A stretch of DNA of 54,394 nt from a virus (Duplodnaviria; Heunggongvirae; Uroviricota; Caudoviricetes): the IMG/VR virus record IMGVR_UViG_2541047753_000004, one strand, 5' to 3'. This document shows, one piece after another, positions 29,583 to 52,278 of this stretch (the first letter of the stretch is position 1; the number at the start of each line of letters is the position of its first letter). Under the pieces are notes generated by a model. That model did not search any database and was not told the DNA's origin. It saw only the letters and a program-made list of their open reading frames with translations. The position numbers and the translations under genes were made by a program.

Positions 29583-29905
29583 ACTTTCAGGCCCCTCTCA
29601 TGTAACCAGTGGGCTGCACGCAGCCTGGCGTTTTCCTCACCGACAAGCAGTGAGCGGATAATCCCGACCGCCTCGCTGTCGTCGTCCTTCACCGCGGTAT
29701 GAAGCGTGATCCCCCGGGCCACACCACGCTTTATCGTGATGACGCCTTTTTTCTCCAGTGCGCGAAGATGCTCCACCGCTGCATTCACCGAACGGTATCC
29801 CAGCATGGTTGCCACCTCCTGATTGGTTGGCGGGAAGCCACGCTCTTTCTGATAAGAAATCAGCATATCCAGCACCTGCTGCTGGCATTGAGTTAACGTC
29901 GTCAT
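29579..29905 (-). CDS. LexA N-terminal DNA-binding-domain protein (no peptidase domain)
   Basis: LTQCQQQVLDMLISYQKERGFPPTNQEVATMLGYRSVNAAVEHLRALEKKGVI parallels the LexA winged HTH; only 108 aa. Confidence 0.6.
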   Translation of the reverse strand: MTTLTQCQQQVLDMLISYQKERGFPPTNQEVATMLGYRSVNAAVEHLRALEKKGVITIKRGVARGITLHTAVKDDDSEAVGIIRSLLVGEENARLRAAHWLHERGLKV

Positions 29906-31049: not shown

Positions 31050-31987
31050 CCCCTGAATCCTGCCGGGATCTGGCTGTAGTCCACGTTGTCGTAACTGGCT
31101 TTGAAGTACGGGTCTTCGCGTTTTTCGGTGTACGTGCTGACGGACGGCGATAAGCGCAGGGAAAGCTCATCCCATTTTTCCCGCAACTTCGACGGGCTGA
31201 GCACGTTACGGCACCAGAACGGATCGCGGCTGACGCGGCTGTACATCTCGCAGATTTGTTTGTGAGTACGACCATCCTGCACACACATCAGGCGAATTTC
31301 GTTTGCCCATGCTGTCCAGTTAGGTTCTTTGGGACGAACCACCTCGCCGTCACATTCGGCGGCCTGCTCGTACAGGGCGATGATTTTTTTCCAGAGCCAC
31401 TGTGCGCAGGTCAAATCATCCTGCGTCCCCCACTGGCGCTTTTTAGGGCTGAATACAACCGCATCAGGATGGCGAGTTAAAAAATCCTGTTCATCCGTCT
31501 GCGTGTCCGGTTGCGAAGCGTCCGGACGAGAAGGTTTTTTATCTGACGGATCATGTTTTGATTTTACTGACGGATCCCCGCCAGATTCTGACGGGTGAAA
31601 ACCCGCTTTTTTGCCAGATTTCGACGCATCAAATTTTGACGGGTCAGATTTTGATGCGTCAGATTTTGACGGGTCAGAATCTGACAGTTGAGAAAATGCC
31701 GCTGCCTGAAGCTTCGCAACGTTAAGCTGATAAACATTCGACGCATTGCGGTTACCCTGGCGACGCGCCTTACGCGTTAACCAGCCTTCTGCTTCCAGCC
31801 GTGCGATAGCCGTTCTGACGGTACTCATCCCCGCGCCAATCTGACGGGCAATAGTTTCAATTGATGGCCAGCACACACCTTCGTCATTACTGAAATCAGC
31901 CAGGCGGGCCATAATTGCCACGCTGGATAATTTCATGCCTGACGCAGCGCAACCATCCCATACATAGCCGGTTAATTTAGTGCTCAT
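31046..31987 (-). CDS. Replication initiation protein (O-like, N-terminal wHTH)
   Basis: 313 aa; N-terminal HTH, internal repeated peptide SDSDPSKSDASKSDPSKFDASKS encoded by DNA iterons; downstream of cro/cII-like genes. Confidence 0.7.
   Translation of the reverse strand: MSTKLTGYVWDGCAASGMKLSSVAIMARLADFSNDEGVCWPSIETIARQIGAGMSTVRTAIARLEAEGWLTRKARRQGNRNASNVYQLNVAKLQAAAFSQLSDSDPSKSDASKSDPSKFDASKSGKKAGFHPSESGGDPSVKSKHDPSDKKPSRPDASQPDTQTDEQDFLTRHPDAVVFSPKKRQWGTQDDLTCAQWLWKKIIALYEQAAECDGEVVRPKEPNWTAWANEIRLMCVQDGRTHKQICEMYSRVSRDPFWCRNVLSPSKLREKWDELSLRLSPSVSTYTEKREDPYFKASYDNVDYSQIPAGFRG
31539..31690. repeat. Putative replication origin iterons inside the O-like gene
   Basis: Tandem ~15-bp units (ATTTTGACGGGTCAG and variants) repeated about 6-8 times. 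Confidence 0.6.
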
Positions 31988-31996
31988 GACCGACCT

Positions 31997-32335
31997 CTAT
32001 TTCCCTGAATTTACGACGAAACTGTTCGAGCGGGCTAAAGCACTCATGCTCATAGCCTTCACGGAGGTAGATAACCCGTTGTGTTTCCGGCTCCCAACGA
32101 ATGACTCTGACGGGCACTCCGTAGTGATCTTTGAACCAGCGGTTAACTTGTCGCAAAGGACTGTCTCCTTCTGCCGGTTGAAATCCCCCACAGCCCACTC
32201 AGCAAAGCTGTGGGTTACAATTTCCCTGTCACCTGGTACATTTACTGCATAGCAATACTCCACCTTCGCTTTTCCACCCGGTACAGGAAGCGCAATCAGT
32301 TGCGAGCGACGGTAGTGTGTTGTTAAACTGTTCAT
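31997..32335 (-). CDS. Hypothetical protein
   Basis: 112 aa; ATGA start/stop overlap with upstream YdaT-like gene suggests translational coupling. Confidence 0.4.
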
Positions 32336-32889
32336 GCGTTAGTTTCTCCACAACCAGAAGCAATCGACGCCACGACGCCCGGAGCTGCACACTCGCGGGC
32401 GTCATTACTTTCTGAAACGCAAAAAATTTTGTAGACAAGTGCTGCATGCTCCTGCAGCTTCGAAATTGAGAGGTACAGCTCGTCGTTAATTGCTGTCTTC
32501 TCATGCGGTTCCACTACACCGTCTTCGATTGCCGAACGAATCTGTTTTGAATAACTGCCGATCTGTTCAATGACTTCCAGTAAACGCTGGTTAATATCGG
32601 CATTGTCCACATCCTCGACGTCAGGAAGAGACACAAAGACGCCATTTGCAGACTGCGCCACAGCGTCAGCAATGAAGTGAGTGCCACCAGCACGTTGTAA
32701 AATCATTGCCCATCCCAGCGGGAAAATCTGATCGCCATCGGCACGAAGGCGGTTAAATAATGCGTTCTCTGTTACATCCAGCCACTCAGCAGCTTCAGCG
32801 TAACCCCCCGGCAACGCCGCGATAGTTTTTCTGACAGCTTTCACGTACCACTCAGGCTGTTTTTCCACTTTCCAGTGATGATTACCCAC
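32332..32889 (-). CDS. CII-like / YdaT-family regulatory protein
   Basis: 185 aa immediately downstream of cro-like gene. Confidence 0.5.
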
Positions 32890-33142
32890 GGCTTACCTCC
32901 TGTTCCTGTGGTTTAAACCCATTCTGGTTTTGGCTAGATTGAAAACGTGCCGGATAAAGAATCTGCATTTCGCTGATTTCACCCTTAAAAAAATTGGCCA
33001 GACGTTCTGCAAGATCGATAGATGGAATTTGTTCCAGTCTTTCAATACGACTCAGCGTCGCTGGATTGACCTGAACGCCAGCAGCAACATGCTGCAAAGT
33101 AAATCCGTGCGCCTTACGCACATTCCGTAATGGTGATTGCAT
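32882..33142 (-). CDS. cro: Cro-like HTH repressor (XRE family)
   Basis: 86 aa; HTH GFTLQHVAAGVQVNPATLSRIE; divergent from the CI-like repressor. Confidence 0.8.
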   Translation of the reverse strand: MQSPLRNVRKAHGFTLQHVAAGVQVNPATLSRIERLEQIPSIDLAERLANFFKGEISEMQILYPARFQSSQNQNGFKPQEQEVSRG

Positions 33143-33239
33143 ATGACCTCCACATATTGCGTGATAAGCATATTATTTCACGCAAATATTTTGCGCAAGT
33201 TGATTTGCTTAACGCGCAATAAAGAAATGTAATAAACGC
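33143..33239. promoter_or_regulatory. Immunity operator/promoter region
   Basis: Repeated palindromic half-sites TTGCGTGA / TCACGCAA / TTGCGCAA / CGCGCAA between the divergent cro and repressor starts. Confidence 0.55.
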
Positions 33240-37514: not shown

Positions 37515-37555
37515 TAATGTTGCTCCCGTGTGCAGACGGGATAATGGAGAAACGT

Positions 37556-37762
37556 ATGCTGAACCTCGATTGTGTTCCTATCTCAACTTATTGCAAAGAA
37601 ACTGGCGAAACTCCTGAAGCAATAAACAAACGTGTACAGCGCGGTGTTTGGCGTGAAGGTGTTCAGGTTTTAAAGGTTGAAGGCGTTAAGGAGAGGTGGA
37701 TTGATCTTAGTGAGGTTGCAAAATGGGCCAGACAAAACTGCTCAAACTACCGCGCGGCGTAA
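37556..37762 (+). CDS. xis: Excisionase (Xis-like)
   Basis: Small basic protein immediately upstream of and overlapping int; start uncertain (37517, 37544 or 37556). Confidence 0.55.
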   Translation: MLNLDCVPISTYCKETGETPEAINKRVQRGVWREGVQVLKVEGVKERWIDLSEVAKWARQNCSNYRAA

Positions 37763-38895
37763 CAATCAGGAAACACCGCCAGGGAGAAACGATCAATATA
37801 ACTTTCACCTACAAAGGAGTTAGATGTCGTGAGCCGCTTTCCAATCTGGAAGTAACACCAAAGAACATTAAATACGCCGAGCGTACACTCGGCGAAATCC
37901 ATAATAAGATCGAAAGGGGAACATTCATTTATGCAGAATATTTTCCCCGTTCTGCTCGTTTGAAAATTTTTGGTAATGCTGCTGCAGGCAAAACGGTAAA
38001 GGTGTACCTGGACGAATATCTTGAAATCTGCGAAACAAGAAAACTTTCACCCTCTACGATTGGTGGCTATAAAAAATGCCGTAGTGCGTTAGCCTCACTT
38101 CACATTTGCCCTGCAAGTGAATTAACACCAGCAACCCTGAAAGCGTGGATTCAAAGCCAGAAAACAACCTTAAAAACCATTCGCAACCAGTTATCTTTCC
38201 TACGGTCAGCACTTGATGAAGCCGTGACCGATGGGGTACTTCAAATTAACCCCGTATCGTTAGTAACAGCTTCGCGCTACCAAAGTGATAAGTCAGAAGC
38301 AGAAAGCAGCTATGTGGTTGATCCGCTATCACCAGCAGAAGTTGATGCATTACTAGCAGCAGCCGGAAACAAACAATGGGAAAATCTGTTCCGGTTCGCC
38401 ATACATACAGGCCTGCGTAGTTCTGAATTATGTGCCCTACGATGGCATGATATCGACTTTGTTGGAAAAACAGCCCATGTTCAGAGCGCAAGTGTTGTCG
38501 GAGTTATCAAAGGAACAAAGACAAAAGCCGGTACCCGTAAAGTTGAACTGACTGAAGAAGCAATGTTGGCGTTGATAAACCAGAAGCCATTTACATTCAT
38601 GAAGGATGCTACTGTCTTTGAAGATCCAAAGACCAATAAACCCTGGGCAAGTGCTGATGCAATTAGGAAAAAAGCATGGGTGCCAACATTGCGAAAAGCA
38701 GGTATTCGTTACAGAAACCCATATCAAACCAGGCATACATTCGCCACCAGCCATATCAGCCGGGGAGCAAACCTGTTTTGGCTTGCGGCTCAAATGGGCC
38801 ATAAAGGGCCTGAAATGTTATTCAGGCACTATGGACAATACTTGAAAGAGTATGATGGGAGGGCAAGTATCAAGGATAAAAAGGCTTTATTTTAA
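37723..38895 (+). CDS. int: Tyrosine integrase (lambda Int family)
   Basis: 390 aa; C-terminal catalytic region R...HTFATSHISRGANLFWLAAQMGHKGPEMLFRHYGQY with conserved R, H-x-x-R and Tyr. Confidence 0.9.
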   Translation: MGQTKLLKLPRGVTIRKHRQGETINITFTYKGVRCREPLSNLEVTPKNIKYAERTLGEIHNKIERGTFIYAEYFPRSARLKIFGNAAAGKTVKVYLDEYLEICETRKLSPSTIGGYKKCRSALASLHICPASELTPATLKAWIQSQKTTLKTIRNQLSFLRSALDEAVTDGVLQINPVSLVTASRYQSDKSEAESSYVVDPLSPAEVDALLAAAGNKQWENLFRFAIHTGLRSSELCALRWHDIDFVGKTAHVQSASVVGVIKGTKTKAGTRKVELTEEAMLALINQKPFTFMKDATVFEDPKTNKPWASADAIRKKAWVPTLRKAGIRYRNPYQTRHTFATSHISRGANLFWLAAQMGHKGPEMLFRHYGQYLKEYDGRASIKDKKALF

Positions 38896-39486
38896 GTCAT
38901 TATGCCAATCGTCTACTGTTTGAAACCAAATTTTTAACCTTTGCATAAAGGTACGATCCTTTTTGGGAGGGTGGTACCTTTGAAAAGAAGTATGTAACGC
39001 TTCGATAACTCCCATACAAGCATCAATTACTTCTTGTGCTTTAACCGGGCGATCGGTATCTGAAAGCTTGTGAGCGACCTCACAATCCAGAGTTGCTTTC
39101 TCTAGTACAGATGAGAACACCTCGTCAGGTATATACAGTCCTCTGCTTTCCAAAATGCAAATCAGTTTGGAAACTTGTTGAGCTTTAGCCAAGATAGTTA
39201 ACAAGTATGAAACAGAAGCCTTTGTTCTATCCTTTTGCAACCTTAACAATCGATGCTTTGATGCTCTAATTTTAGGTTGAGTTGTCTGACTGAGCCAATA
39301 GTTAGAAGAAATATCAGAAATTTCAATAACTAACTTTGAAATAGCATCAATAATTGATTTCGATTCAGAACGTGTCGCCAGTTTTACAGAATTATTGTAC
39401 GCAACTCGCCATCCAATGAAAACTAAGCAGACGCTAACTACTGTGATACACCACGAATACTGTCCTATTTGTGCTACTAATGACAT
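38887..39486 (-). CDS. Single-pass membrane protein, unknown function (cargo operon gene 3)
   Basis: N-terminal TM helix WCITVVSVCLVFIGW, helical soluble domain; last gene of a 3-gene minus-strand operon; start at internal ATG 39486 (ORF track begins at TTG 39504). Confidence 0.5.
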   Translation of the reverse strand: MSLVAQIGQYSWCITVVSVCLVFIGWRVAYNNSVKLATRSESKSIIDAISKLVIEISDISSNYWLSQTTQPKIRASKHRLLRLQKDRTKASVSYLLTILAKAQQVSKLICILESRGLYIPDEVFSSVLEKATLDCEVAHKLSDTDRPVKAQEVIDACMGVIEALHTSFQRYHPPKKDRTFMQRLKIWFQTVDDWHNDLK

Positions 39487-39514
39487 TGGTTCCGTACTGA
39501 TCAACTATCGCCTC

Positions 39515-39841
39515 TTATACTCTTTCTGGTTGTGCTAAATCAATAAATTTATCAATCTGTTCTTTGTAGAACGGAACATCACTTTTTATAATCAAACGTG
39601 CTTTAACGTTGGCTTTAGGTATCCCTTCCTTACGGATGAGACCTCCAAACGCCTCTTCTAAGAAAGAGGAACCAACACCCAGTGCTATACCGCGAAAATC
39701 AACCACAATCTCCTGTTCAGTACCCTTCAGCGCAGGCACCAAAAACTCTCTACGAAATCTTTCCGCACTGTGTGGGCTATCCGTTGTGTAACGTCCGAAA
39801 GGTGTTCTGGAGAACTCCTTCGCTATGACGATATTTCTCAT
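39515..39841 (-). CDS. STAS-like small protein (DUF4325-like) (cargo operon gene 2)
   Basis: 108 aa; IVVDFRGIALGVGSSFLEEAFGG resembles the STAS / anti-sigma-antagonist core; AGGAG SD; starts 4 nt after upstream stop. Confidence 0.55.
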   Translation of the reverse strand: MRNIVIAKEFSRTPFGRYTTDSPHSAERFRREFLVPALKGTEQEIVVDFRGIALGVGSSFLEEAFGGLIRKEGIPKANVKARLIIKSDVPFYKEQIDKFIDLAQPERV

Positions 39842-39845
39842 AAAA

Positions 39846-40757
39846 TCATCTCCTGGGAACCAGCGACCATTGTAGTAAAGTACCCGGTATGTACTCAGCT
39901 AGCTTCTCACATCGAGGACTACTGTCATTAGAATTATAGCTATAACGAGCCCTTCCTGTTAGTATCAGAAGTGTCTCATTATCCTCACAACCTGCCCCAA
40001 TAGGTCTCTTGATATCTTCAGAGCCATTTCCCCGTCCGGAACCAACAAAGCGGGATTCCCCTACTAACATAGCTCTTTCCACAGAAGATACTTCGTTTTG
40101 AATGCTATGACCATCACCATTAGGCACGAAACTTCTATAAATCCCCAATCCAAGGTCACAAACGATAAAAACGACTTTATTTTCATCACGATTGAACCAA
40201 GCGCACTGCCACCATCGTTTACCTTTGAGAAGCTGAATATCTGACTCGAACCCCTCATCTTCATACGCATGATGAGAAACATTGAGCAAAGCTTCACTAA
40301 TCGCTGTCAGCAGTAAGCCTAACTGTTCATTATTAAGCAGAGCACTTTTCTGCAGCATGAGTACTGTTTCAACAATATGCTCGTAAGGTTCGACAGCTGA
40401 CTGAAAGTATCGTTCCTCCCTCGTAAGTGCATTCAGTTTCTCTTCTGTGCCAGCAAGCAAAGCACGAGCAAGTCCAGTACCAACGATCCATCTATGCCCA
40501 GATGGGTTATCATCCTTTTTAGGCCATTTAAAACGTATAAAATTAGGGTCCCGGGTTAAAAATTGAGCTCTATTTACTATGGCAAAGAACAGTACCGATG
40601 CCGCAGCTGAGGCAAATTTTACCTTGGACAAATCAACTATAACTCGACCTTTATTTTTTACTCCAATCGATTCAATCGAGTTGATGAAGTTCAATGTCCC
40701 AGCCCTAGAATCATCTGAGTAAATGCAAAATTTGCTTGGGGGTACCAGTATGGTCAT
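39846..40757 (-). CDS. GHKL-type ATPase/kinase with N-terminal STAS-like region (cargo operon gene 1)
   Basis: Bergerat-fold motifs: N-box EALLNVSHHAY, G1 DLGLGI, G2 GSGRGNG; N-terminal RVIVDLSKVKFASAAASVLFFAI resembles STAS beta-strand/helix. Confidence 0.6.
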   Translation of the reverse strand: MTILVPPSKFCIYSDDSRAGTLNFINSIESIGVKNKGRVIVDLSKVKFASAAASVLFFAIVNRAQFLTRDPNFIRFKWPKKDDNPSGHRWIVGTGLARALLAGTEEKLNALTREERYFQSAVEPYEHIVETVLMLQKSALLNNEQLGLLLTAISEALLNVSHHAYEDEGFESDIQLLKGKRWWQCAWFNRDENKVVFIVCDLGLGIYRSFVPNGDGHSIQNEVSSVERAMLVGESRFVGSGRGNGSEDIKRPIGAGCEDNETLLILTGRARYSYNSNDSSPRCEKLAEYIPGTLLQWSLVPRR

Positions 40758-40909
40758 AGCGATGTCATTCTTATACGATGGATTTATAGATTATCTACTA
40801 TTCATAGTTGGTTATGAAGACTGGGATATAACAGTAAAAGATACGTGTAAGATCCGCAAGATAGTTAATGTCGAAAAAAATCATTAATTACATCAAGTTA
40901 GTGATATTT

Positions 40910-40941
40910 GGACTCGGGTTCAACTCCCGCCAGCTCCACCA
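40910..40941 (+). other. ssrA: 3'-terminal ~32 nt of ssrA (tmRNA): attachment-site repeat
   Basis: GGACTCGGGTTCAACTCCCGCCAGCTCCACCA matches the ssrA 3' end (T-arm, acceptor, CCA) with one mismatch; upstream sequence is not ssrA. Confidence 0.75.
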
Positions 40942-40974
40942 CTTGCTCTTCCGGATACGTCCGGAGAAATCCTG

Positions 40975-41010
40975 AAAGCCCGCATGGCACAAGCTTTGCG
41001 GGCTTTTTTG
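40975..41010 (+). terminator. Intrinsic terminator (ssrA terminator-like)
   Basis: AAAGCCCGCA...TGCGGGCTTTTTTG. Confidence 0.6.
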
Positions 41011-41125
41011 TGTCTATCTTTGTCCGAGGATATCCAGCTAAATCCAGTGATTATTGGTATATGTTTAGGTATACGGTAAGATGTATACCTAAAAGCGTAT
41101 ACCAATACTCTGAGGTAGGATAATC

Positions 41126-42319
41126 GTGGCACGTACAACACGCCCTCTTACTAACACTGAACTATCACGTGCTAAAGCAACTGAAAAGGATCTAACGCTA
41201 CATGATGGTGATGGGCTTTTTCTACTCATAAAAACGAACGGAAGGAAGTTGTGGCGTTTCCGATACCAGAAGCCTGTATCAAAACAGAGAACCATGATTA
41301 GTTTAGGAACGTTCCCCGCCCTATCTCTGGCTGAGGCCAGAAACGTGCGTGCTGAGTATCTTTCCTTATTAGCCCGGGGTATTGATCCACAAACATACAG
41401 TAAGCAAGTCTCAGAACATCAACAGATTGCGATTGATAGTATTTTTTCAAAAGTTGCCACAAATTGGTTTGCCATAAAAAGCAATAACGTCACACCTGAT
41501 TATGCAAAGGATATATGGCGATCCTTAGAGAGGGACATTTTCCCTGCTATCGGTGAGATTCCTGTTCAGGAAATAAAAGCCCGCACATTAATTGAAGCCC
41601 TAGAGCCAATTAAAGCTCGTGGGGCACTTGAGACTGTTCGTCGTTTAGTACAACGTATTAATGAAATTATGATTTATGCTGTTAATACTGGTCTGATAGA
41701 TGCTAACCCTGCTTCAGGCATTGGTATGGCATTTGAAAAACCTAAAAAACAGCACATGCCAACGCTTAGACCTGAAGAATTACCGAAACTCATGCGTTCA
41801 ATAACAATGTCTAATTTATCTATTCCAACTCGTTGTTTGATTGAATGGCAACTCTTAACACTTGTACGCCCTGCAGAAGCTTCCAATGCAAAGTGGATAG
41901 AGATCGATTTCGAAGCTAAACTATGGATAATACCAGCCAATAGAATGAAGGCAAAGCGGGAACATATTGTTCCATTATCACTTCAGACATTAGATATTCT
42001 TGAAATTATGAAGCCAATCAGTTCACATCGAGAATATATTTTTCCTAGCAGGAATAACCCCAATCAACCAATGAACAGTCAGACGGCAAATGCAGCCTTA
42101 AAGCGCATCGGTTATGGTGGTAAGTTGGTTGCACACGGACTGCGTTCGATAGCAAGTACAGCAATGAATGAAGCTGGTATAAATCCAGATATTATCGAAG
42201 CAGCACTTTCCCATTGTGATAAAAATGAGGTTAGAAGAGCATATAATCGAACAACCTACTTGGAACAAAGAAAAGAGCTTATGAATTGGTGGGGTAGTTT
42301 CATTTCAAAAAACAAATAA
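41126..42319 (+). CDS. int: P4-type tyrosine integrase
   Basis: 397 aa, GTG start, N-terminal MARTTRPLT...DGDGL...LGTFPALSLAEAR typical of P4/CP4-57 IntA; adjacent to ssrA 3' end. Confidence 0.9.
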   Translation: MARTTRPLTNTELSRAKATEKDLTLHDGDGLFLLIKTNGRKLWRFRYQKPVSKQRTMISLGTFPALSLAEARNVRAEYLSLLARGIDPQTYSKQVSEHQQIAIDSIFSKVATNWFAIKSNNVTPDYAKDIWRSLERDIFPAIGEIPVQEIKARTLIEALEPIKARGALETVRRLVQRINEIMIYAVNTGLIDANPASGIGMAFEKPKKQHMPTLRPEELPKLMRSITMSNLSIPTRCLIEWQLLTLVRPAEASNAKWIEIDFEAKLWIIPANRMKAKREHIVPLSLQTLDILEIMKPISSHREYIFPSRNNPNQPMNSQTANAALKRIGYGGKLVAHGLRSIASTAMNEAGINPDIIEAALSHCDKNEVRRAYNRTTYLEQRKELMNWWGSFISKNK

Positions 42320-42329: not shown

Positions 42330-43445
42330 ATGAATAATAAAGATTTTCCATGCAAAGCCTCAAATATCTATGATAAAAATATAAATTTTTTATTTGGCTC
42401 AGGCTCCTCTGCTTCATATATTCCTACTCTCTATCTAGATAAAAACACTACTTATGAAACATTACTTACACATGAGGATTGTGAGGGTGTCAAGGACTTC
42501 ATATTATGTTCTTATTTCAATAATATCATTAGAAAAACATTTTGTGTTAAACCTAATAGTGAAGACAAAAAATATAATTCTACTTTAGCAAACTATAGCT
42601 ACTTTATTGATGAACTAATCAAATTATTAGAGAAAAAAGGGGCAAATCAAATAAGGCGAGCGAATATTTTTACAACAAATTATGATCTTTTTTTCGAAAC
42701 TGCGGCTGATGATATTTTAAATAATAAAACATTTCATTTCAATGACGGTGGTCTAGGTTTCAAAAGCCGGAAATTGAACATTAGTAATTTTCATATTACT
42801 GCTTGGCATCAAGGTACGCATGATATGTACAAACATGAAATTCCAACAGTAAACTTAATAAAAATGCATGGTTCTGTTTCTTGGTGTAGAGATATTAATG
42901 AAACGATTAGTATTAATTACACTCAAGAAGAACCACCAAAGTTTAGACTAGATACAAAAAAAGACATTAATGATTTAGTCACCACCTTAAACGAAACAAG
43001 CGATAATCTCGTTAGTTATTTAAATTTATCTACAAGCGATCAAGAAACACTTCAAGAATTTAAATCTTATTACAACAACTTAGCTATAGTTAGCCCAACT
43101 AAAGAAAAATTTTCTGAAACTGTTTTTCAACAACATTATTACCAATGTTTACGATTGCTAAGTTATGAATTAGAGAAACCACAAACTGTATTAATTTGTT
43201 TTGGTTTTTCTTTTCAAGATGAACACATACGTGAGATTATAAAAAGATCATTAAGTAACCCTACTCTTAAGGTCTTTGTTTTTTGCTACTCAAAATCCAG
43301 CATGGAAAGTATACAGCACATTATCAATGACCAACGAATAACCTATATTCTTCCTATAGAAGATGATCATACAATTTCATTTAAACCGTTTATAGATAGA
43401 GTATTTAGATCTGAACACGGAGATTGGATTACATGGAAGAACTAA
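42330..43445 (+). CDS. SIR2-like domain protein (NADase-type defence effector)
   Basis: FLFGSGSS (Rossmann Gly-rich), TTNYDLFFE, MHGSVSW motifs; AT-rich; AAGGA SD. Confidence 0.7.
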   Translation: MNNKDFPCKASNIYDKNINFLFGSGSSASYIPTLYLDKNTTYETLLTHEDCEGVKDFILCSYFNNIIRKTFCVKPNSEDKKYNSTLANYSYFIDELIKLLEKKGANQIRRANIFTTNYDLFFETAADDILNNKTFHFNDGGLGFKSRKLNISNFHITAWHQGTHDMYKHEIPTVNLIKMHGSVSWCRDINETISINYTQEEPPKFRLDTKKDINDLVTTLNETSDNLVSYLNLSTSDQETLQEFKSYYNNLAIVSPTKEKFSETVFQQHYYQCLRLLSYELEKPQTVLICFGFSFQDEHIREIIKRSLSNPTLKVFVFCYSKSSMESIQHIINDQRITYILPIEDDHTISFKPFIDRVFRSEHGDWITWKN

Positions 43446-45205
43446 TTGTTGGTAATGTTACCCAAATAAAGGGCACAACAGTAAGGGCCAAAATCAATCA
43501 TGACTTTTTTCAGTCAACATACTTTCATAAAGGTAAAATACTACGAGGTATCTCTATAAATGAATTTGTTTTGATTAAAAAAGGTTATCACGATATCGTC
43601 GGAAAGATTATTGGTGAAGAAATTGTTGAAAACATCAATATTAGAAGCGATGAAATTGAACAAAAAAAATATGACCGTTTTGTAGAACTGAATATTTTAG
43701 GGTATTTTTTTGAGAGTTCATTTTATTCCGGTATAAAATTTTTACCAATGATAAATGACAGCTTACACTTAATTTCAGACGAGAAGATATCAGAAATATA
43801 TAAGTTTAGCAAAAACACTAAAGCACCTTTAATAAACATAGGGAAATCTATGTTAGAGGAGTTGCCAATTAACATACCAATAAATGGTATTTTTAATTCA
43901 CACATAGGCATATTTGGAAACACTGGAAGTGGCAAGTCCAACACTCTTGCAAAACTTTATCACTCTCTAATAAACCTTATAACAACAAAAGAAAGAGTTA
44001 TATCAAAATCAAGTTTTGTTTTGATTGATTTTAATGGTGAATACAGCACATTTGCTACGTCATTTCCAGATTTGTGCGAACAAGTCAATCTCAACACAAA
44101 GAATTCCGGTGATAAACTAACTTTCACTGATGATGAATTTTGGGATGATGAATTATTATCGGTATTGTTTTCTGCAACTGAAAAAACTCAAAAGCCATTT
44201 CTTAGTCATTTAATTAAAAATAGAGAAAAATATAATGGTAAATTGGAGGATTACTTACAAACAACTATCCACAGTATGTTTTCTCCTAATCCACACAGGG
44301 AAACAATAAATTTATTAAAAAGCCTTGCCCCTTACTTTTCAGAGAGAGCACAGGGTAAAATACTTGAAGAGTTATCACAATTCTCATGGCATTCTGGGCA
44401 AAATAAGTATTTGCACTCAAAATACAACTTCATTGATAAAATGGAAGATGCTTTACAGGCTTTAGATGCAACATATAAATCCAAGTTTAAGTTAAACAGC
44501 GTTTTTGATGAAGTTGCAATCCGATCTATTCTACAACTAATTAATTCAGTATCACGTAATTATGTACAATATGATCATATATATCCGCTAATTAATAAAA
44601 TAACGGCAATGACTCCTGCCCTATCCAAAGTAATTAATATCAGAAACGAAACAAAAAATAAAAAACCTATATATATAGTGTCATTAAAAGAGTGCAATCA
44701 ATTAATCAAAAAAACCATTCCAATGATGCTTGCAAAATGTTCATTCTTAGAGCACAAGTCATCTAAAAATACAAAGGAAAGCTTCCACCTAATTATAGAT
44801 GAAGCACACAACATATTGTCTGAAACATCTGTCAGAGAGGCGGAAACATGGAAAGATTATAGGCTTGAGTTATTTGAGGAAATAATAAAAGAGGGAAGGA
44901 AGTTTGGGTTCTTCGTTACAATTTCGAGTCAACGACCTTTTGACATCTCTCCCACAATTGTTTCCCAACTTCATAATTATTTTATTCATCGATTAGTGAA
45001 CGAAAATGATTTGTTTTTGTTAAAAAATACTTTAAGCACCCTTGATGCGGCATCAAGATCACTAATTCCAACACTTCCTCCTGGTGGGTGTATAGTTTCA
45101 GGAACAGCTTTCCACACCCCATTACTTGTTCAAATCGACAGATTAGCTGAGGAAAATGCTCCTAACAGCGATACTCTTGATTTAGAAAAATTGTGGGATA
45201 TTTAA
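43424..45205 (+). CDS. HerA-like ATPase (DUF87)
   Basis: Walker A GIFGNTGSGKSNT, Walker B LIIDEAHN; overlaps SIR2 gene by 22 nt. Confidence 0.75.
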   Translation: MDYMEELIVGNVTQIKGTTVRAKINHDFFQSTYFHKGKILRGISINEFVLIKKGYHDIVGKIIGEEIVENINIRSDEIEQKKYDRFVELNILGYFFESSFYSGIKFLPMINDSLHLISDEKISEIYKFSKNTKAPLINIGKSMLEELPINIPINGIFNSHIGIFGNTGSGKSNTLAKLYHSLINLITTKERVISKSSFVLIDFNGEYSTFATSFPDLCEQVNLNTKNSGDKLTFTDDEFWDDELLSVLFSATEKTQKPFLSHLIKNREKYNGKLEDYLQTTIHSMFSPNPHRETINLLKSLAPYFSERAQGKILEELSQFSWHSGQNKYLHSKYNFIDKMEDALQALDATYKSKFKLNSVFDEVAIRSILQLINSVSRNYVQYDHIYPLINKITAMTPALSKVINIRNETKNKKPIYIVSLKECNQLIKKTIPMMLAKCSFLEHKSSKNTKESFHLIIDEAHNILSETSVREAETWKDYRLELFEEIIKEGRKFGFFVTISSQRPFDISPTIVSQLHNYFIHRLVNENDLFLLKNTLSTLDAASRSLIPTLPPGGCIVSGTAFHTPLLVQIDRLAEENAPNSDTLDLEKLWDI

Positions 45206-45402: not shown

Positions 45403-45975
45403 TTACACAGACTGACGTGATGCCAGTTGCGCACTTTTACGCGAAAAAATCATGTTCTGCGCAGGGGTAAATTTTTCACGGCTGTCGTCCACCGAAGCCG
45501 CGTCAGGCCTGAATCCGATGGTCGTTAAAATGTCGCTATCCTGTGCGGAATAATTAATTTTTTCCCCCTTCGCAAGCCAGGACAGAAGGGCTTCACGCAG
45601 GGCATCTGTGGCACGCTGTATGGCACAGTTTCGGGCAATGGCCGTCAGCTCACTGTAGCCCATCAGCTCCGGTGCCAGTGCCGCCGCCAGTGCTGTGCCG
45701 TGCTGCTGCATAAAATCATTCAGCCGGTCGCGGATGCTGATGTGCTGAACGGCTTCATGCGAACGAATATAACGACCAGCGGCCTGATTCACCTGCCATT
45801 TTCTGACTTCGATAATATTGCGTAATTCGTCCAGGCGACTGACGTTTCTGCCTTCTCCTGACAGAAGCCGCAGATATTCCTGTTCGGCCGCTGCCAGCTC
45901 ATTTTTGCGTTGCAGCCATGCTGCTTTGTTATTCTGACAGGTGTCAAAGGCCTGCTGTAAGGCTGTGCTTTCCAT
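45403..45975 (-). CDS. psu: Polarity suppression protein Psu
   Basis: 190 aa, length and sequence as recalled for P4 Psu. Confidence 0.85.
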   Translation of the reverse strand: MESTALQQAFDTCQNNKAAWLQRKNELAAAEQEYLRLLSGEGRNVSRLDELRNIIEVRKWQVNQAAGRYIRSHEAVQHISIRDRLNDFMQQHGTALAAALAPELMGYSELTAIARNCAIQRATDALREALLSWLAKGEKINYSAQDSDILTTIGFRPDAASVDDSREKFTPAQNMIFSRKSAQLASRQSV

Positions 45976-46048
45976 CGTTATCTCTTTCTCATCATGCTGA
46001 AGAATAAAAATACGGTGTGCGGCGACGGCCGGTGTTAACCGGCAGCCC

Positions 46049-46549
46049 TCATTCCAGACGCAGCGAATATGATTGTGTTTTTAAGCGTACTGGCGGCAGT
46101 TCCTGTTTTTCATGCAGGCTTTCTGCCAGTTCGTCCGGCGTGACCGGGCGGACAATGAAACGGTTGATGGTCTGAAGCGTTTTAAACACCAGACCACAGC
46201 CCGGATCCGTGCACACATAAAAACGCTCGGTGACTTCCTGAGACAGACGCCGCGATGTTCTTGACAGTGCAAGGCCTTTACATCTCCGACAACAATATCC
46301 GGTAACAAGCATTCTTTTCGGGCGTTTCATACTGCCGGAGGCTGACGTCAGTGAATCGCGGTATCTCTGTTTGCCTGAAATGTATTCCATTCCTGAATCT
46401 TTACTGTCAGAGAAAAAGCTTTCACTCGCTTCAAATGTCGCAGAGCAATAAATATTCCGGCACTGTGCAATCATTATCTTGGTGCCATCGTCCATGAAAT
46501 GTGCGCGGCGGGTGTGAGCAACATGACCACACGACGGGCAGTAAATCAT
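46049..46549 (-). CDS. delta: Late gene activator Delta (Ogr/Delta zinc-finger family)
   Basis: 166 aa with two CxxC...CxxC zinc-finger units (MIYCPSCGH..., ...CCRRCKG...CTDPGCG). Confidence 0.85.
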   Translation of the reverse strand: MIYCPSCGHVAHTRRAHFMDDGTKIMIAQCRNIYCSATFEASESFFSDSKDSGMEYISGKQRYRDSLTSASGSMKRPKRMLVTGYCCRRCKGLALSRTSRRLSQEVTERFYVCTDPGCGLVFKTLQTINRFIVRPVTPDELAESLHEKQELPPVRLKTQSYSLRLE

Positions 46550-47280
46550 GACAGCAGTCCTCTGGCCTTAAGCACTGCTCCCTGCTGGTCTATTTTGTCC
46601 TGCCACACCTTGCGCTGTGCCGGTGTGCCTGCCACCTCATAATCCATGTGAGGAAGTGTTGCCGCTGACAGTCCGGTCAGCCGGAGAACCGGCTCGCCGG
46701 TGAGGCTGATTTGCATCTGTTTAATTTTCTGTTCCAGCGATGATTTCACCTGCTGCATGACAGCCTTTTCCGGTGCGACGTAGCCCTGATGGCCGGTGGT
46801 GTTGGCGAGCGGATTTTCCTGTACCAGAATGCTCAGATGCATTGCCCGGACAAGCGCCTCACAGGTTTCATTCAGGGCGTGTTCCAGCTCATGCTCTGCA
46901 TACAGACTCAGAAGGTGATGATGTGCCTTCCGGTAGGCGGTGGCCGTGCTGTCACACGCCCCTTTCAGGCGTTCGCGTTCAAAATTCAGCACCACGGCCA
47001 GATTGTCATATTCCTGTACCAGTTCCCGGCGTGCCACGCGCTCAATGTGGCGCTGTTTCAGCTCGTCGCTCAGGACACCACCGGCTGCACGAAAGGCCGT
47101 GCGCCAGTCGTCAGCGTCGTTTCCGTCGGCCTGCGCCAGCGCATTTTTTTCCTGCTCTGCCCGTTCAATGGCCGTGACGGTCTCATCCATCAGGCGGGCG
47201 TTCTCAAGATGGGCGGCTCTGGCCTTTTCCAGTTGTGCCAGTGCGGGTTGCAGATATTCAGGGATGGTGTTGTCAGACAT
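46546..47280 (-). CDS. sid: Capsid size determination protein Sid
   Basis: 244 aa from MSDNTIPEY; position in psu-delta-sid operon. Confidence 0.8.
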   Translation of the reverse strand: MSDNTIPEYLQPALAQLEKARAAHLENARLMDETVTAIERAEQEKNALAQADGNDADDWRTAFRAAGGVLSDELKQRHIERVARRELVQEYDNLAVVLNFERERLKGACDSTATAYRKAHHHLLSLYAEHELEHALNETCEALVRAMHLSILVQENPLANTTGHQGYVAPEKAVMQQVKSSLEQKIKQMQISLTGEPVLRLTGLSAATLPHMDYEVAGTPAQRKVWQDKIDQQGAVLKARGLLS

Positions 47281-47298
47281 TTTCCGGCTCCTCGTCAC

Positions 47299-47832: not shown

Positions 47833-48099
47833 ATGCAAGCTGTTTTTTCTTCCCCGTCTCCCGCCCCTGTGACGCCACTGATGCCGCTGCCGGACATCAC
47901 GCAGGAGCGTTTTTTACGTCTGCCGGAAGTGATGCACCTGTGCGGCCTGTCACGCTCGACCATCTATGAACTCATCCGTAAGGGGGAATTTCCGCCGCAG
48001 GTGAGTCTTGGCGGTAAAAATGTGGCCTGGCTGCACTCTGAAGTCACTGCATGGATGGCCGGGCGCATTGCCGGACGCAAACGGGGGTACGACGCATGA
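47833..48099 (+). CDS. AlpA-family HTH regulator (P4 orf88-like)
   Basis: 88 aa; [29 protein letters not shown]; GAGG SD. Confidence 0.7.
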
Positions 48100-48695
48100 T
48101 GATGCCCGCTCTGCAAAAACGCCCTTTTTCTGGCTTGCCTTTTTCCGGCATTTGCGGATATAGTTTTTCCGCTGCCGCAAAATCGGCAGCCGGGCGTGGA
48201 AACCCGAGCAATTCACAGGCGACATATGACGCGCCATGCGTCTTTTTTTGTGTCGCAATCAACGCCACAGAGCGCCAGATTATGGTGTGGTGTGTGGTCA
48301 GTCGTGCAGATGGCATTCCGTGCATCCTGCCCGCGTCCGCTCATTATGCCGCAGAGTCAATGGTAGCTCAGGCGGGGCAGCCTCCGGGCTGGCCGGTATC
48401 CTGTGAAGCCGGTATTTCCACCCCCGTCTGGGCTATCGCCATCGAGCGTGGAAACTCCGGCGATAGCGTTATTTGCTATTCACAGGAGGCTGCCATCATG
48501 GCTACAACCCTTACCCCCTCACACCCTGAATTTGTCTTTGTGTTTGCGGCTGTCCGTCGCGCAGACCGTCATCCCCGTATCTGTATGCTTCGCACCGTCG
48601 CCGGTGATGAACGCAGTGCCCGCCGTTCCCTTGTCCGTGACTATGTGCTCTCCCTTGCTGCCCGTCTGCCGGTGGTGGAGGTGTCCCGTGCGTAA
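48096..48695 (+). CDS. Hypothetical protein (P4 orf199-like)
   Basis: 199 aa from MMMPALQ; size and position. Confidence 0.45.
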
Positions 48696-49893: not shown

Positions 49894-52227
49894 ATGAAAA
49901 TGAACGTAACCGCCACCGTCAGCCATGCGCTCGGCCACTGGCCGCGTATTCTCCCGGCGCTGGGGATTCAGGTGCTGAAGAACCGTCATCAGCCCTGTCC
50001 GGTCTGTGGCGGGAGTGACCGCTTCCGTTTTGATGACAGGGAGGGGCGTGGCACCTGGTACTGCAATCAGTGTGGTGCCGGTGACGGCCTGAAACTGGTT
50101 GAAAAGGTGTTTGGTGTTTCCCCGTCCGACGCGGCCGCAAAGGTGGCTGCCGTGACCGGCAGCCTGCCACCGGCTGACCCGGCAGTGACGGCCGCCGCCG
50201 TTGCTGAAACAGAAGCCGCCCGGAAGAACGCCGCCGCACTGGCACAAACCCTGATGGCGAAAACCCGTCCCGGAACCGGTAACGCCTACCTGACCCGCAA
50301 GGGCTTTCCCGGCCGGGAATGCCGGATGCTGACCGGCACACACAGAGCCGGTGGCGTGAGCTGGCGCGCCGGTGACCTTGTGGTGCCACTGTATGACGAC
50401 AGCGGCGAACTGGTTAACCTTCAGTTAATCAGTGCTGACGGCCGTAAGCGCACCCTGAAAGGCGGACAGGTCAGGGGCACCTGTCACATCCTTGAAGGAC
50501 AGAATCAGACCGGAAAACGTCTGTGGATAGCGGAGGGATACGCGACCGCACTTACCGTGCATCACCTGACCGGTGAAACGGTGATGGTGGCGCTTTCTTC
50601 CGTGAACCTCCTTTCTCTGGCCAGCCTTGCCCGGCAGAAGCATCCGGCCTGTCAGATTGTCCTTGCCGCAGACCGTGACCTCAGCGGTGACGGCCAGAAA
50701 AAAGCCGCCGCAGCCGCAGATGCGTGTGAAGGTGTTGTTGCCCTGCCGCCGGTCTTCGGTGACTGGAATGATGCCTTCACGCAGTACGGCGGGGAAGCCA
50801 CCCGTAAGGCCATTTACGATGCCATCCGGCCACCGGCTGAAAGCCCGTTCGACACCATGAGCGAAGCGGAGTTTTCCGCCATGAGTACCAGCGAAAAGGC
50901 CATGCGTATCTATGAGCATTACGGCGAGGCGCTCGCGGTCGATGCCAACGGCCAGCTTCTGTCCCGCTATGAAAATGGTGTCTGGAAGGTGCTGCCGCCA
51001 CAGGACTTTGCCCGGGATGTGGCCGGGCTGTTTCAGCGGCTGCGCGCGCCGTTCTCCTCCGGGAAGGTGGCCTCCGTGGTGGACACCCTGAAGCTGATTA
51101 TTCCGCAGCAGGAAGCCCCCTCCCGCCGCCTGATTGGCTTTCGTAACGGCGTGCTCGACACGCAGAACGGCACGTTCCACCCGCACAGTCCGTCACACTG
51201 GATGCGCACCCTGTGCGATGTGGATTTCACCCCACCGGTGGAAGGGGAAACGCTGGAAACCCACGCCCCCGCGTTCTGGCGCTGGCTTGACCGTGCCGCC
51301 GGTGGCCGTGCGGAAAAACGCGACGTGATTCTGGCCGCACTGTTTATGGTGCTGGCAAACCGCTACGACTGGCAGCTCTTTCTGGAGGTGACCGGTCCCG
51401 GCGGCAGCGGCAAAAGTATCATGGCCGAAATAGCCACCCTGCTGGCCGGGGAGGATAACGCCACGTCGGCCACCATTGAGACGCTGGAATCCCCGCGTGA
51501 ACGTGCCGCGTTAACTGGCTTCTCACTGATACGCCTGCCGGACCAGGAAAAATGGAGCGGCGACGGTGCCGGACTCAAGGCCATCACCGGCGGCGATGCG
51601 GTGTCCGTGGACCCGAAATACCGGGATGCGTACTCCACGCATATCCCGGCGGTGATTCTGGCCGTGAACAATAACCCGATGCGCTTCACCGACCGCAGCG
51701 GCGGCGTGTCACGCCGGCGGGTGATTATTCACTTCCCGGAACAGATAGCCCCGCAGGAGCGCGACCCGCAGCTTAAGGACAAAATCACCCGCGAGCTGGC
51801 GGTCATCGTGCGTCACCTGATGCAGAAATTCAGCGACCCGATGCTCGCCCGGTCACTGCTTCAGTCCCAGCAGAACTCAGACGAGGCGCTGAACATCAAA
51901 CGGGATGCCGACCCGACGTTTGATTTTATCGGCTATCTGGAAACCCTGCCGCAGACCAGCGGCATGTATATGGGGAACGCCAGTATCATCCCGCGCAATT
52001 ACCGTAAATACCTCTATCACGCCTATCTGGCCTACATGGAGGCAAACGGCTACCGGAATGTACTCAGTCTGAAAATGTTCGGGCTGGGGCTGCCGGTGAT
52101 GCTGAAGGAATACGGACTGAATTACGAGAAGCGCCATACCAAACAGGGGATACAGACCAACCTGACGCTGAAAGAGGAAAGCTACGGCGACTGGCTGCCA
52201 AAATGTGACGACCCTGCGACAGCCTGA
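49894..52227 (+). CDS. alpha: Alpha primase-helicase
   Basis: 777 aa; N-terminal zinc-binding CPVCGGSDRFRFDD...YCNQCG primase region, central Walker A GPGGSGKS helicase region. Confidence 0.9.
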   Translation: MKMNVTATVSHALGHWPRILPALGIQVLKNRHQPCPVCGGSDRFRFDDREGRGTWYCNQCGAGDGLKLVEKVFGVSPSDAAAKVAAVTGSLPPADPAVTAAAVAETEAARKNAAALAQTLMAKTRPGTGNAYLTRKGFPGRECRMLTGTHRAGGVSWRAGDLVVPLYDDSGELVNLQLISADGRKRTLKGGQVRGTCHILEGQNQTGKRLWIAEGYATALTVHHLTGETVMVALSSVNLLSLASLARQKHPACQIVLAADRDLSGDGQKKAAAAADACEGVVALPPVFGDWNDAFTQYGGEATRKAIYDAIRPPAESPFDTMSEAEFSAMSTSEKAMRIYEHYGEALAVDANGQLLSRYENGVWKVLPPQDFARDVAGLFQRLRAPFSSGKVASVVDTLKLIIPQQEAPSRRLIGFRNGVLDTQNGTFHPHSPSHWMRTLCDVDFTPPVEGETLETHAPAFWRWLDRAAGGRAEKRDVILAALFMVLANRYDWQLFLEVTGPGGSGKSIMAEIATLLAGEDNATSATIETLESPRERAALTGFSLIRLPDQEKWSGDGAGLKAITGGDAVSVDPKYRDAYSTHIPAVILAVNNNPMRFTDRSGGVSRRRVIIHFPEQIAPQERDPQLKDKITRELAVIVRHLMQKFSDPMLARSLLQSQQNSDEALNIKRDADPTFDFIGYLETLPQTSGMYMGNASIIPRNYRKYLYHAYLAYMEANGYRNVLSLKMFGLGLPVMLKEYGLNYEKRHTKQGIQTNLTLKEESYGDWLPKCDDPATA

Positions 52228-52278
52228 CCCACCTGACCGGCATCTGCCGGTCTTTTTTTATCCCTGAATTCCCCGAAG

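What the first reader, a model, noticed from the sequence alone, without database searches (positions are those of the whole stretch)
40910..41010. ssrA 3'-end fragment marks a tandem-integration junction
Only the last ~32 nt of tmRNA plus its terminator are present, directly before the P4-type int; the sequence upstream is prophage cargo, not the ssrA body. This implies the prophage inserted into ssrA upstream of an already resident satellite, with an intact ssrA beyond the left edge of the window. A second degenerate copy sits near 52713-52735.
Basis: partly seen in the sequence, partly recalled or inferred. Interest (0 to 1): 0.45.

Follow-up and report, generated by a model that had tools for sequence, protein, structure and literature searches.

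The report
Junction of two elements stacked in ssrA

Summary
Window 40910-40941 carries the last 32 nt of E. coli ssrA (27/27 exact, 31/32 overall). It is not a gene: ARAGORN finds no tmRNA in the window, and Rfam scores below threshold.

To its left lie a prophage integrase, an excisionase and three cargo genes. To its right lie a satellite-borne terminator, integrase arm-type repeats and a P4-type int. The satellite (40942-52734, 11.8 kb) is 98.5% identical to phage P4 over 7.3 kb. It carries a different int/att module and a SIR2-HerA cargo.

The satellite ends at a degenerate ssrA copy (52713-52734) that lacks T357. This is the same type as K-12 psaA, the right att site of CP4-57. The native ssrA trailer follows it.

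I recovered the source contig (GCA_000457555.1, identical to the window). An intact 363-nt ssrA ends 234 nt upstream of window position 1. Other E. coli genomes show the empty site, the satellite alone, the prophage alone, and both elements in reverse order.

The order of integration cannot be read from the structure. Satellite-first is only modestly favoured.

Tandem arrays at ssrA are already known, so interest is low.

The parts
1..3852 (.). Left-end cargo of the prophage: EcoRII-like type II restriction enzyme (1-1209, +), Dcm-type methylase (1244-2719, -) and a PD-T4-3 GIY-YIG protein (3028-3852, +). The prophage's left att site (intact ssrA plus a 234-nt phage arm) lies just outside the window.
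   Evidence: PADLOC hits. Pfam EcoRII-N/C in relatives. Source contig L031 shows ssrA at 4914-5276 and the restriction-enzyme ATG at 5511, which is window position 1.
3910..33200 (-). Prophage structural and lysis genes: tail-fibre invertase, Mu-like baseplate, sheath and tube, HK97-type capsid, portal, P27-type terminase.
   Evidence: Pfam. RefSeq annotation of homologous prophages.
37517..37762 (+). Prophage excisionase.
   Evidence: phrog_2917 excisionase, E = 8e-45. Same position as xis of phage phiNP.
37723..38895 (+). Prophage tyrosine integrase (390 aa).
   Evidence: Arm-DNA-bind_2 plus Phage_integrase domains. 82.6% nt identity to the int of Citrobacter phage phiNP, whose record ends in the ssrA 3' end.
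38887..40757 (-). Three prophage cargo genes between int and the att site: 205 aa unknown; 108 aa STAS-like DUF4325; 303 aa with a weak histidine-kinase-like ATPase match.
   Evidence: Pfam, PADLOC and PHROGs. Conserved at this position in 126 complete E. coli genomes.
40758..40909 (.). Non-coding right arm of the prophage att site.
   Evidence: Identical next to the fragment in prophage-only and other tandem strains.
40910..40941 (+). Displaced ssrA 3' fragment (site S2), a hybrid att core. The T-loop at 40919-40925 is the inferred prophage crossover. The last 15 nt (40927-40941) are the core used by the P4-type integrase.
   Evidence: T-loop inference from secondary-site relatives. The 15-nt core comes from the K-12 CP4-57 and psaA annotation.
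40942..41125 (+). Satellite att arm: hairpin 40947-40967; terminator hairpin 40974-41002 with U run to 41008; 22-bp arm-type repeat 41054-41075; two inverted GGTATAC at 41083-41103.
   Evidence: Fold. Repeat searches. 100% identical to the sequence that follows intact ssrA in the satellite-first strain ETEC1730.
41126..42319 (+). P4-type integrase of the satellite (397 aa).
   Evidence: Pfam. Lies directly downstream of intact ssrA in many genomes.
42330..45205 (+). SIR2-HerA defence pair in the satellite's int-psu hotspot.
   Evidence: PADLOC SIR2 E = 4e-65 and HerA E = 1e-192. This system is described in the P4 hotspot in PMC9122126.
45214..45285 (.). Satellite cos region.
   Evidence: Matches the cos regions of P2 and pro147, and lies at P4 coordinate 11624/1.
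45403..47298 (-). psu, delta and sid.
   Evidence: Pfam Psu and Ogr_Delta. phrog_6165. 98.5% identity to P4.
47833..48443 (+). AlpA/Vis-like regulator (47833-48099) and the P4 immunity RNA region (Rfam c4-a1b1, isrK and C4 at 48158-48443).
49894..52227 (+). Alpha primase-helicase.
   Evidence: Pfam. 98.5% identity to P4.
52273..52574 (.). P4 crr replication region, with two 121-nt direct repeats.
   Evidence: 96.5% identity to P4 crr.
52638..52659 (+). Second copy of the 22-bp arm-type repeat, in the satellite's other att arm.
   Evidence: The pattern occurs only twice in the window, with 0 expected by chance.
52713..52734 (+). Degenerate ssrA 3' copy (site S3), the satellite's right att site. 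It lacks T357 and differs in the T-loop region.
   Evidence: Same type as K-12 psaA. Identical in the satellite-only strain EC100.
52735..52888 (+). Native ssrA trailer and native ssrA terminator (52862-52888). Chromosomal DNA continues from here to glaH/csiD at 53417.
   Evidence: ssrA joined to window 52735-53036 is contiguous and 100% identical in Nissle 1917, ABU 83972 and others. Terminator scan and fold.

Best explanation
Window 40910-41010 is the internal junction of a two-element tandem array integrated in the 3' end of the E. coli tmRNA gene ssrA.

In the source genome the order is: smpB; intact ssrA (site S1, 234 nt before the window); prophage of about 41.2 kb; 32-nt ssrA fragment (S2, 40910-41941 region, precisely 40910-40941); P4 satellite of 11.8 kb; degenerate ssrA copy lacking T357 (S3, 52713-52734); native ssrA trailer; glaH.

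Each element encodes its own tyrosine integrase, and each carries a replacement 3' end and terminator for ssrA in its att site. Integration therefore keeps ssrA whole and pushes the displaced 3' piece to the far end of the element.

S2 is a hybrid site. To its left is the prophage's arm. The core is ssrA sequence. To its right is the satellite's arm, with a terminator, arm-type integrase sites and int.

Inferred, not shown:
- The prophage integrase crosses over in the T-loop (40919-40925).
- The P4-type integrase crosses over in the last 15 nt (40927-40941).
- Prophage Int/Xis acting on S1 x S2 would release the prophage and leave ssrA joined to the satellite.
- Satellite Int acting on S2 x S3 would release the satellite without touching ssrA.
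- Satellite Int acting on S1 x S3 would release both elements (53 kb) and could leave the T357-deleted, inactive ssrA reported for CP4-57 excision.

Most likely history, at about 0.6: the satellite was resident and the prophage then entered the intact ssrA.
For: Fragment identity and uniqueness. No tmRNA gene in the window.

The source contig is identical to the window and has intact ssrA 234 nt upstream.

The empty site exists. ssrA joined directly to window 52735-53036 is 100% identical in Nissle 1917 and others, and 710 of 5426 genomes cover at least 80% of that construct.

Single-occupancy states exist with the same junctions: satellite only in EC100; prophage only in UM146 and strain C1.

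The same two element types occur in reverse order in ETEC1730. The same satellite sits behind a P2-like prophage in GDAR2-2. The same prophage sits in front of other P4-type-int islands in 13C1079T and strain 0-4.

Each element has its own integrase. The prophage has an excisionase. The satellite has an AlpA/Vis-like gene.

A 22-bp arm-type repeat occurs only in the two satellite arms.

The satellite is 98.5% identical to P4 over 7.3 kb, including cos and crr.

S3 has the same form as K-12 psaA. Loss of T357 on CP4-57 excision is reported in PMC10107115.

The prophage int is related to that of phage phiNP, whose record ends in the ssrA 3' end.

The principle of regenerated target, displaced fragment and tandem arrays is described in PMC4383910.
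Against: Neither element's free att site (circular form) was found in any collection, so both crossover positions are inferred.

There are no excision or expression data.

The order of integration cannot be decided from the sequence. The prophage's displaced fragment plus the native trailer is a complete target for the P4-type integrase, so the opposite order gives the same product.

The missing T357 in S3 does not fit a simple crossover to the left of T357 into a wild-type target, so the exact exchange point or the later decay of S3 is unexplained.
Confidence: 0.93

Rival explanations
1. Same tandem array, opposite history. The prophage integrated first, and the P4 satellite then integrated into the prophage's displaced 32-nt fragment (its right att site) rather than into the intact ssrA.
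For: Prophage-only strains exist in which the displaced fragment is intact and is followed by the native trailer (strain C1). That gives the P4-type integrase a full copy of its 15-nt core with both flanks. ETEC1730 shows that the satellite can enter a genome already carrying this prophage type. The final sequence would be identical to the window.
Against: A prophage lysogen offers two equivalent satellite targets, and only one of them gives this order. A satellite lysogen offers the prophage a single target, and that always gives this order. This is roughly 2:1 for satellite-first by inference. The satellite-to-glaH junction of the window is the same as in 105 genomes, including the satellite-only strain EC100.
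Confidence: 0.3
2. The array was not built by two integrations in this lineage. It was imported or reshuffled by homologous recombination, for example transduction or conjugation across the smpB-glaH region, or exchange between the ssrA-trailer copies that are 93-100% identical.
For: The locus is highly mosaic among strains. Parts of the window match different genomes best: ETEC1730 at 100% for 1-3000, UM146 at 99.9% for 38900-40934, and EC100 at 99.0% for 51500-54394. Two or three copies of the ~150-nt trailer provide homology.
Against: The junctions are exactly those expected from site-specific recombination. This rival changes only where the integrations happened, not what the feature is.
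Confidence: 0.07
3. The fragment is a decayed or duplicated ssrA pseudogene or a chance match, or a complete ssrA lies at 40580-40941.
For: None beyond the 32-nt match itself.
Against: 0 of 100 shuffles give the 26-mer. Identity upstream of the fragment is 26%. ARAGORN and Rfam do not call a gene. The upstream DNA is a conserved protein gene. The identity boundary is sharp and is the same in many genomes.
Confidence: 0.005

Closest known systems
CP4-57 cryptic prophage of E. coli K-12, with its right att site psaA (b4645)
   Same: A P4-type integrase gene lies directly after the ssrA 3' end. The att core is the last ~15 nt of ssrA. The element supplies a replacement terminator. The right att site is ...ACTCCGCCAGC-CCACCA, lacking T357, and is followed by the same native trailer ATCATGATTGGACGG. 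An AlpA-type regulator is present. Excision is reported to delete U357 and inactivate tmRNA (PMC10107115).
   Different: CP4-57 is a 22-kb degraded island with no P4 replication or capsid-hijacking genes, and it abuts the intact ssrA. Here the element is a near-complete P4 (psu, delta, sid, alpha, crr, cos), and its left site is only a 32-nt fragment because a prophage lies between it and ssrA.
[quoted passage not shown]
   Same: An intact target gene is followed by one displaced 3' fragment per element, and each element has its own integrase. Islander reports 125 tandem arrays of at least 2 elements, and the tmRNA gene as the most enriched target (PMC4383910).
   Different: Nothing of substance. 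This particular pairing (this prophage followed by this SIR2-HerA P4 variant) is absent from 5426 complete E. coli genomes, from the species-representative genomes and from the metagenome contigs. It is present in the source draft assembly.
Satellite phage P4 (NC_001609 / X51522)
   Same: 98.5% nt identity over 7.3 kb: cos, psu, delta, sid, immunity region, alpha and crr.
   Different: The int/att module and the hotspot cargo are replaced. From my own knowledge, P4 integrates in leuX and carries gop-beta-cII. This variant targets ssrA and carries SIR2-HerA.
Citrobacter phage phiNP (OR565852)
   Same: The integrase and excisionase region is 82.6% identical at nt level. There is cargo between int and the att end. 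The record ends in ...GGACGCTGGTTCAACTCCCGCCAGCTCCACCA, the ssrA 3' end.
   Different: The cargo is different (an AAA ATPase plus a further unannotated ORF downstream of it; I did not search its family), and only the int region matches at megablast level.
P2-like prophage plus the same satellite at ssrA in E. coli GDAR2-2
   Same: The satellite arm and int are identical behind a displaced ssrA fragment.
   Different: The upstream prophage there is a P2-like potential helper, and it carries a longer ssrA fragment (~45 nt). The window's prophage is not P2-like, so it is a neighbour rather than a helper.

Membership tests
Tandem integrative-element array at a tDNA (Islander criteria) | A fragment identical to the 3' end of the target gene, in the same orientation as the gene | tested here: met
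   27/27 and 31/32 identity on the + strand. The intact ssrA is on the + strand in the source contig.
Tandem integrative-element array at a tDNA (Islander criteria) | Intact target gene at the proximal end of the array | tested here: met
   L031 is identical to the window. ARAGORN finds a tmRNA at 4914-5276, ending 234 nt before window position 1.
Tandem integrative-element array at a tDNA (Islander criteria) | Each member has its own integrase gene and its own target fragment | tested here: met
   Prophage int 37723-38895 with S2. Satellite int 41126-42319 with S3.
Tandem integrative-element array at a tDNA (Islander criteria) | An unoccupied site exists whose sequence equals target plus distal flank | tested here: met
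   The construct of ssrA plus window 52735-53036 is 100% identical and contiguous in many B2 strains.
Tandem integrative-element array at a tDNA (Islander criteria) | Elements excise at these sites (circular junctions detectable) | not testable with these tools
   Needs PCR or read-level data. No free att site was found in the phage collection.
P4-like satellite | Core gene set: int, psu, delta, sid, alpha, with cos and crr, in about 11-12 kb | tested here: met
   98.5% identity to P4 over 7.3 kb including cos and crr. Length 11,793 bp.
P4-like satellite | Variable defence hotspot between int and psu | tested here: met
   SIR2-HerA at 42330-45205. Described for P4-like elements in PMC9122126.
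P4-like satellite | Dependence on a P2-like helper for packaging | not testable with these tools
   No P2-like prophage is present in the window. The adjacent prophage has a Mu-like tail and an HK97-type head.
CP4-57-type ssrA attachment (psaA-type right site) | Right att site is an ssrA 3' copy lacking T357, followed by the native trailer | tested here: met
   Window: TTCAAACTCCGCCAGC-CCACCA|ATCATG. K-12: TTCAGACTCCGCCAGC-CCACCA|ATCATG.
CP4-57-type ssrA attachment (psaA-type right site) | Excision inactivates tmRNA | tested here: not met
   This is a structural inference. The satellite's left site is the 32-nt fragment, not the gene, so S2 x S3 excision cannot alter ssrA. Only S1 x S3 could.
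Functional tmRNA gene | Full tRNA-like domain, tag reading frame and pseudoknots | tested here: not met
   ARAGORN finds none. Rfam gives 21.9 and 30.9 bits against a gathering score of 47. Only the last ~35 nt align.

The most novel reading that the evidence does not exclude
Placing a prophage between ssrA and a CP4-57-type satellite rewires the known 'excision inactivates tmRNA' switch. Satellite excision (S2 x S3) becomes neutral for trans-translation. The P4-type integrase can still pair the intact gene with S3, which would excise a 53-kb prophage-plus-satellite composite and leave U357-deleted tmRNA. A side possibility is that the fragment plus satellite arm is transcribed as an IsrM-like small RNA, because it matches both ends of the Rfam IsrM model.
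Probability: 0.15. Interest if true: 0.35.

Novelty: already known. Interest (0 to 1): 0.12.

Why it matters
The value is mainly practical. The three ssrA 3' copies delimit two separate mobile elements precisely: a prophage of about 41.2 kb and an 11.8-kb P4 variant. Prophage callers could otherwise merge them into one 53-kb region.

The copies also define the sites needed to design excision PCRs or clean deletions.

The comparison across strains shows that ssrA in E. coli is a busy landing pad. The same elements occur alone, together, and in either order. Each carries swappable defence cargo: an EcoRII-like restriction-modification system with PD-T4-3, an uncharacterised three-gene module where relatives carry DarTG, and SIR2-HerA.

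None of this changes current understanding of integration at tRNA-like genes.

Tried and rejected
- A complete ssrA at 40580-40941 is rejected.
- Free att sites of either element were searched for in the phage collection. Only P4 crr and the phiNP int region matched, with no circular junction.
- Exact-junction scans of the species-representative genomes and the metagenome contigs found nothing.
- No complete E. coli genome has this exact prophage-to-satellite junction. The source was found only through exact-protein look-ups.
- I tried to read the order of integration from polymorphisms in the cores and trailers. Both histories predict the same sequence, and the window's trailer differs by two substitutions each from the satellite-only and prophage-only comparators.
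- The simple terminator scan missed the 40974-41008 hairpin, so I folded it instead.
- Williams 2003 (PMC142792) is not held in the library, so it is cited only through the Islander reference list.
- A literature search for DUF4325 in defence found nothing relevant.
- I considered whether the neighbouring prophage could be the satellite's helper. I rejected this because it is not P2-like.

Full report
**What is at the coordinates**

Window 40910-40941 reads GGACTCGGGTTCAACTCCCGCCAGCTCCACCA. The 26-mer GGGTTCAACTCCCGCCAGCTCCACCA occurs once in the 54-kb window, and never in 100 dinucleotide-preserving shuffles.

I compared the window with a real 363-nt E. coli ssrA, anchored at the 3' end. The last 27 nt are identical and the last 32 differ at one base. 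The 318 nt further upstream are 26% identical, which is random.

ARAGORN finds no tmRNA or tRNA in the window. The Rfam tmRNA model stays under its gathering score (21.9 and 30.9 bits against 47) and aligns with confidence only over the T-arm and the 3' acceptor strand. So this is a 3' fragment and not a gene.

Downstream, 40942-41012 folds into two hairpins. The second (40974-41002) is followed by a U run. The energy is -32.4 kcal/mol with z = -4.9. A P4-type integrase gene starts at 41126.

**The surroundings**

To the left of the fragment lies a prophage:
- an EcoRII-like restriction enzyme, a Dcm-type methylase and a PD-T4-3 GIY-YIG protein at 1-3852;
- an invertase, a Mu-like baseplate, sheath and tube, an HK97-type capsid, a portal and a terminase;
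- a regulatory region, then an excisionase (37517-37762) and a tyrosine integrase (37723-38895);
- three minus-strand cargo genes at 38887-40757.

To the right of the fragment lies an 11,793-bp element (40942-52734). It carries int, SIR2-HerA, cos, psu, delta, sid, an AlpA/Vis-like gene, the P4 immunity RNA region (Rfam C4, isrK and c4-a1b1), the alpha primase and crr. From cos to crr it is 98.5% identical to phage P4 itself over 7.3 kb. It is therefore P4 with a different int/att module and different hotspot cargo. SIR2-HerA has been described in this P4 hotspot (PMC9122126).

**The third copy and the chromosomal flank**

At 52713-52734 the sequence TTCAAACTCCGCCAGC-CCACCA resembles the ssrA 3' end. 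It has T-loop differences and lacks T357. It is followed by ATCATGATTGGACGG... and a terminator at 52862-52888.

I joined ssrA to window 52735-53036 in silico. The construct is contiguous and 100% identical in Nissle 1917, ABU 83972 and other strains. In 710 of 5426 complete genomes one place covers at least 80% of it. This flank is therefore the native ssrA trailer. Everything between ssrA and 52734 is inserted DNA.

The K-12 counterpart of this third copy is psaA, the right end of CP4-57. It reads TTCAGACTCCGCCAGC-CCACCA and is followed by the same trailer.

A 22-bp motif, TTGGTATAYGNTTAGGTATACG, occurs only twice in the window: 113 nt right of the fragment and 54 nt left of the third copy. 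Five of the seven GGTATAC sites in the window lie in these two arms. This is what arm-type integrase binding sites of one element would look like.

**The intact gene beyond the left edge**

Exact-protein look-ups recovered the source contig, GCA_000457555.1 KE699806.1. It is identical to the window over 21,116 and 14,883 nt.

In that contig ARAGORN finds a 363-nt tmRNA gene with tag ANDENYALAA. It ends 234 nt upstream of window position 1, just after smpB.

Those 234 nt are the prophage's other att arm. They contain a 93%-identical copy (141/152) of the native trailer and terminator.

The full layout is: smpB; ssrA (S1); prophage; fragment (S2); P4 variant; copy lacking T357 (S3); native trailer; glaH. 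This is 52,968 bp of insertion relative to the empty site.

**Comparative evidence that these are att junctions**

All expected occupancy states exist in other genomes:
- Empty site.
- Satellite only, ssrA-satellite-glaH, in EC100, with an S3 identical to the window's.
- Prophage only, in UM146 and strain C1.
- Both element types in the opposite order, ssrA-satellite-prophage, in ETEC1730.
- The same satellite behind a P2-like prophage in GDAR2-2.
- The same prophage in front of other P4-type-int islands in 13C1079T and strain 0-4.

The boundary of ssrA identity is the same in each of these.

The prophage integrase region is 82.6% identical to that of Citrobacter phage phiNP, whose record ends in the ssrA 3' end.

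**Mechanism**

What follows from established knowledge: tyrosine integrases recombine an element's att site with the 3' end of a tRNA-like gene. The element carries a replacement 3' end, so the gene is regenerated, and the displaced fragment marks the far end. Tandem arrays show one fragment and one integrase per member (PMC4383910).

What is inferred here:
- The prophage probably crosses over in the T-loop. In relatives that sit at a non-ssrA site, ssrA identity begins exactly at TTCAAC.
- The P4-type integrase probably crosses over in the last 15 nt, as annotated for CP4-57.
- S2 therefore contains both cores side by side.

Three recombinations are possible: S1 x S2 (prophage out), S2 x S3 (satellite out, ssrA untouched) and S1 x S3 (both out). 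Excision of CP4-57 is reported to delete U357 and inactivate tmRNA (PMC10107115). In this array only the S1 x S3 event could do that.

**Order of integration**

The prophage's displaced fragment plus the native trailer, as seen in strain C1, is a complete target for the P4-type integrase. A prophage-first history would therefore give the same sequence.

A simple count of available targets favours satellite-first by about 2:1. Polymorphisms in the cores and trailers do not discriminate between the histories.

The missing T357 in S3, and the larger deletions seen in the displaced fragments of other strains (4 nt in ETEC1730 and GDAR2-2, 5 nt in UM146), are not explained by a simple crossover model. 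They may reflect decay of copies that are not under selection.

**Comparison with what is known, and verdict**

The feature matches the documented pattern of tandem islands at the tmRNA gene. S3 has a named K-12 counterpart (psaA). The satellite is P4 with a swapped integration module.

This exact pairing is absent from 5426 complete E. coli genomes, from the species-representative genomes and from the metagenome contigs. That reflects combinatorial shuffling of known parts, not a new kind of system.

Novelty: already known. Interest is low.

Noticed in passing
window 38887-40757 (- strand): There is a three-gene cargo module between the prophage int and its att site: 205 aa (phrog_30059), 108 aa STAS-like DUF4325, and 303 aa with a weak HATPase_c_2 match (phrog_3364). 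It has no PADLOC match. The same slot holds DarT plus a NADAR antitoxin in ETEC1730, and in phage phiNP an AAA ATPase plus a further unannotated ORF. It looks like a variable cargo hotspot holding a possibly uncharacterised defence module.
   Followed up: partly
window 40941-41009: This stretch matches both ends of the Rfam IsrM model (Salmonella island sRNA): the first 8 nt right after the ssrA CCA, and the terminator hairpin. It lacks the 274-nt middle (26.4 bits, far below the gathering score). IsrM may derive from the ssrA-proximal arm of a P4-type island.
   Followed up: no
loci L013, L015, L016 (about 9700-9770): Relatives of the prophage, with the identical restriction enzyme, sit at a different site. 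In L013 and L015 that site lies downstream of an XdhC/CoxI-family gene in a Fer2/FAD-binding/molybdopterin-dehydrogenase cluster; L016 is in a different gene context. ARAGORN finds no tRNA or tmRNA in L015 or L016 (L013 was not scanned). Their left junction reads GGCTGCGGT|TTCAACTCCCGCCAGCTCCACCA ATCATG. ssrA identity therefore starts at the T-loop, which suggests secondary-site integration with a T-loop crossover.
   Followed up: partly
window 52713-52734; L001 19748; L002 31809; L005 22019: Displaced ssrA fragments differ between strains. T357 is missing in the window, EC100 and K-12 psaA. Four nt are missing in ETEC1730 and GDAR2-2. Five nt are missing in the UM146 prophage right site. Precise excision from the last two would leave a broken acceptor stem.
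   Followed up: partly
L001/L009 (E. coli ETEC1730) compared with the window: The same satellite type and the same prophage type occur in the opposite order (ssrA-satellite-prophage). There the prophage int is split by an IS3 element.
   Followed up: yes
window 1-3852: The prophage's other att-proximal end carries an EcoRII-like type II restriction-modification pair and a PD-T4-3 GIY-YIG gene. Defence cargo therefore flanks the prophage att site on both sides.
   Followed up: partly
window 48158-48443: Rfam C4, isrK and c4-a1b1 all hit above their gathering scores inside the satellite. This region lies within the 7.3-kb stretch that is 98.5% identical to phage P4 and corresponds to the P4 immunity (CI RNA) region, not to an independent sRNA locus.
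   Followed up: partly
window 4545-6400: The tail-fibre segment next to the invertase has no megablast match in ten relatives that share the flanking genes. The 130-aa product of 4491-4883 was found on a single contig in the whole protein index. This is a strain-specific host-range cassette.
   Followed up: no
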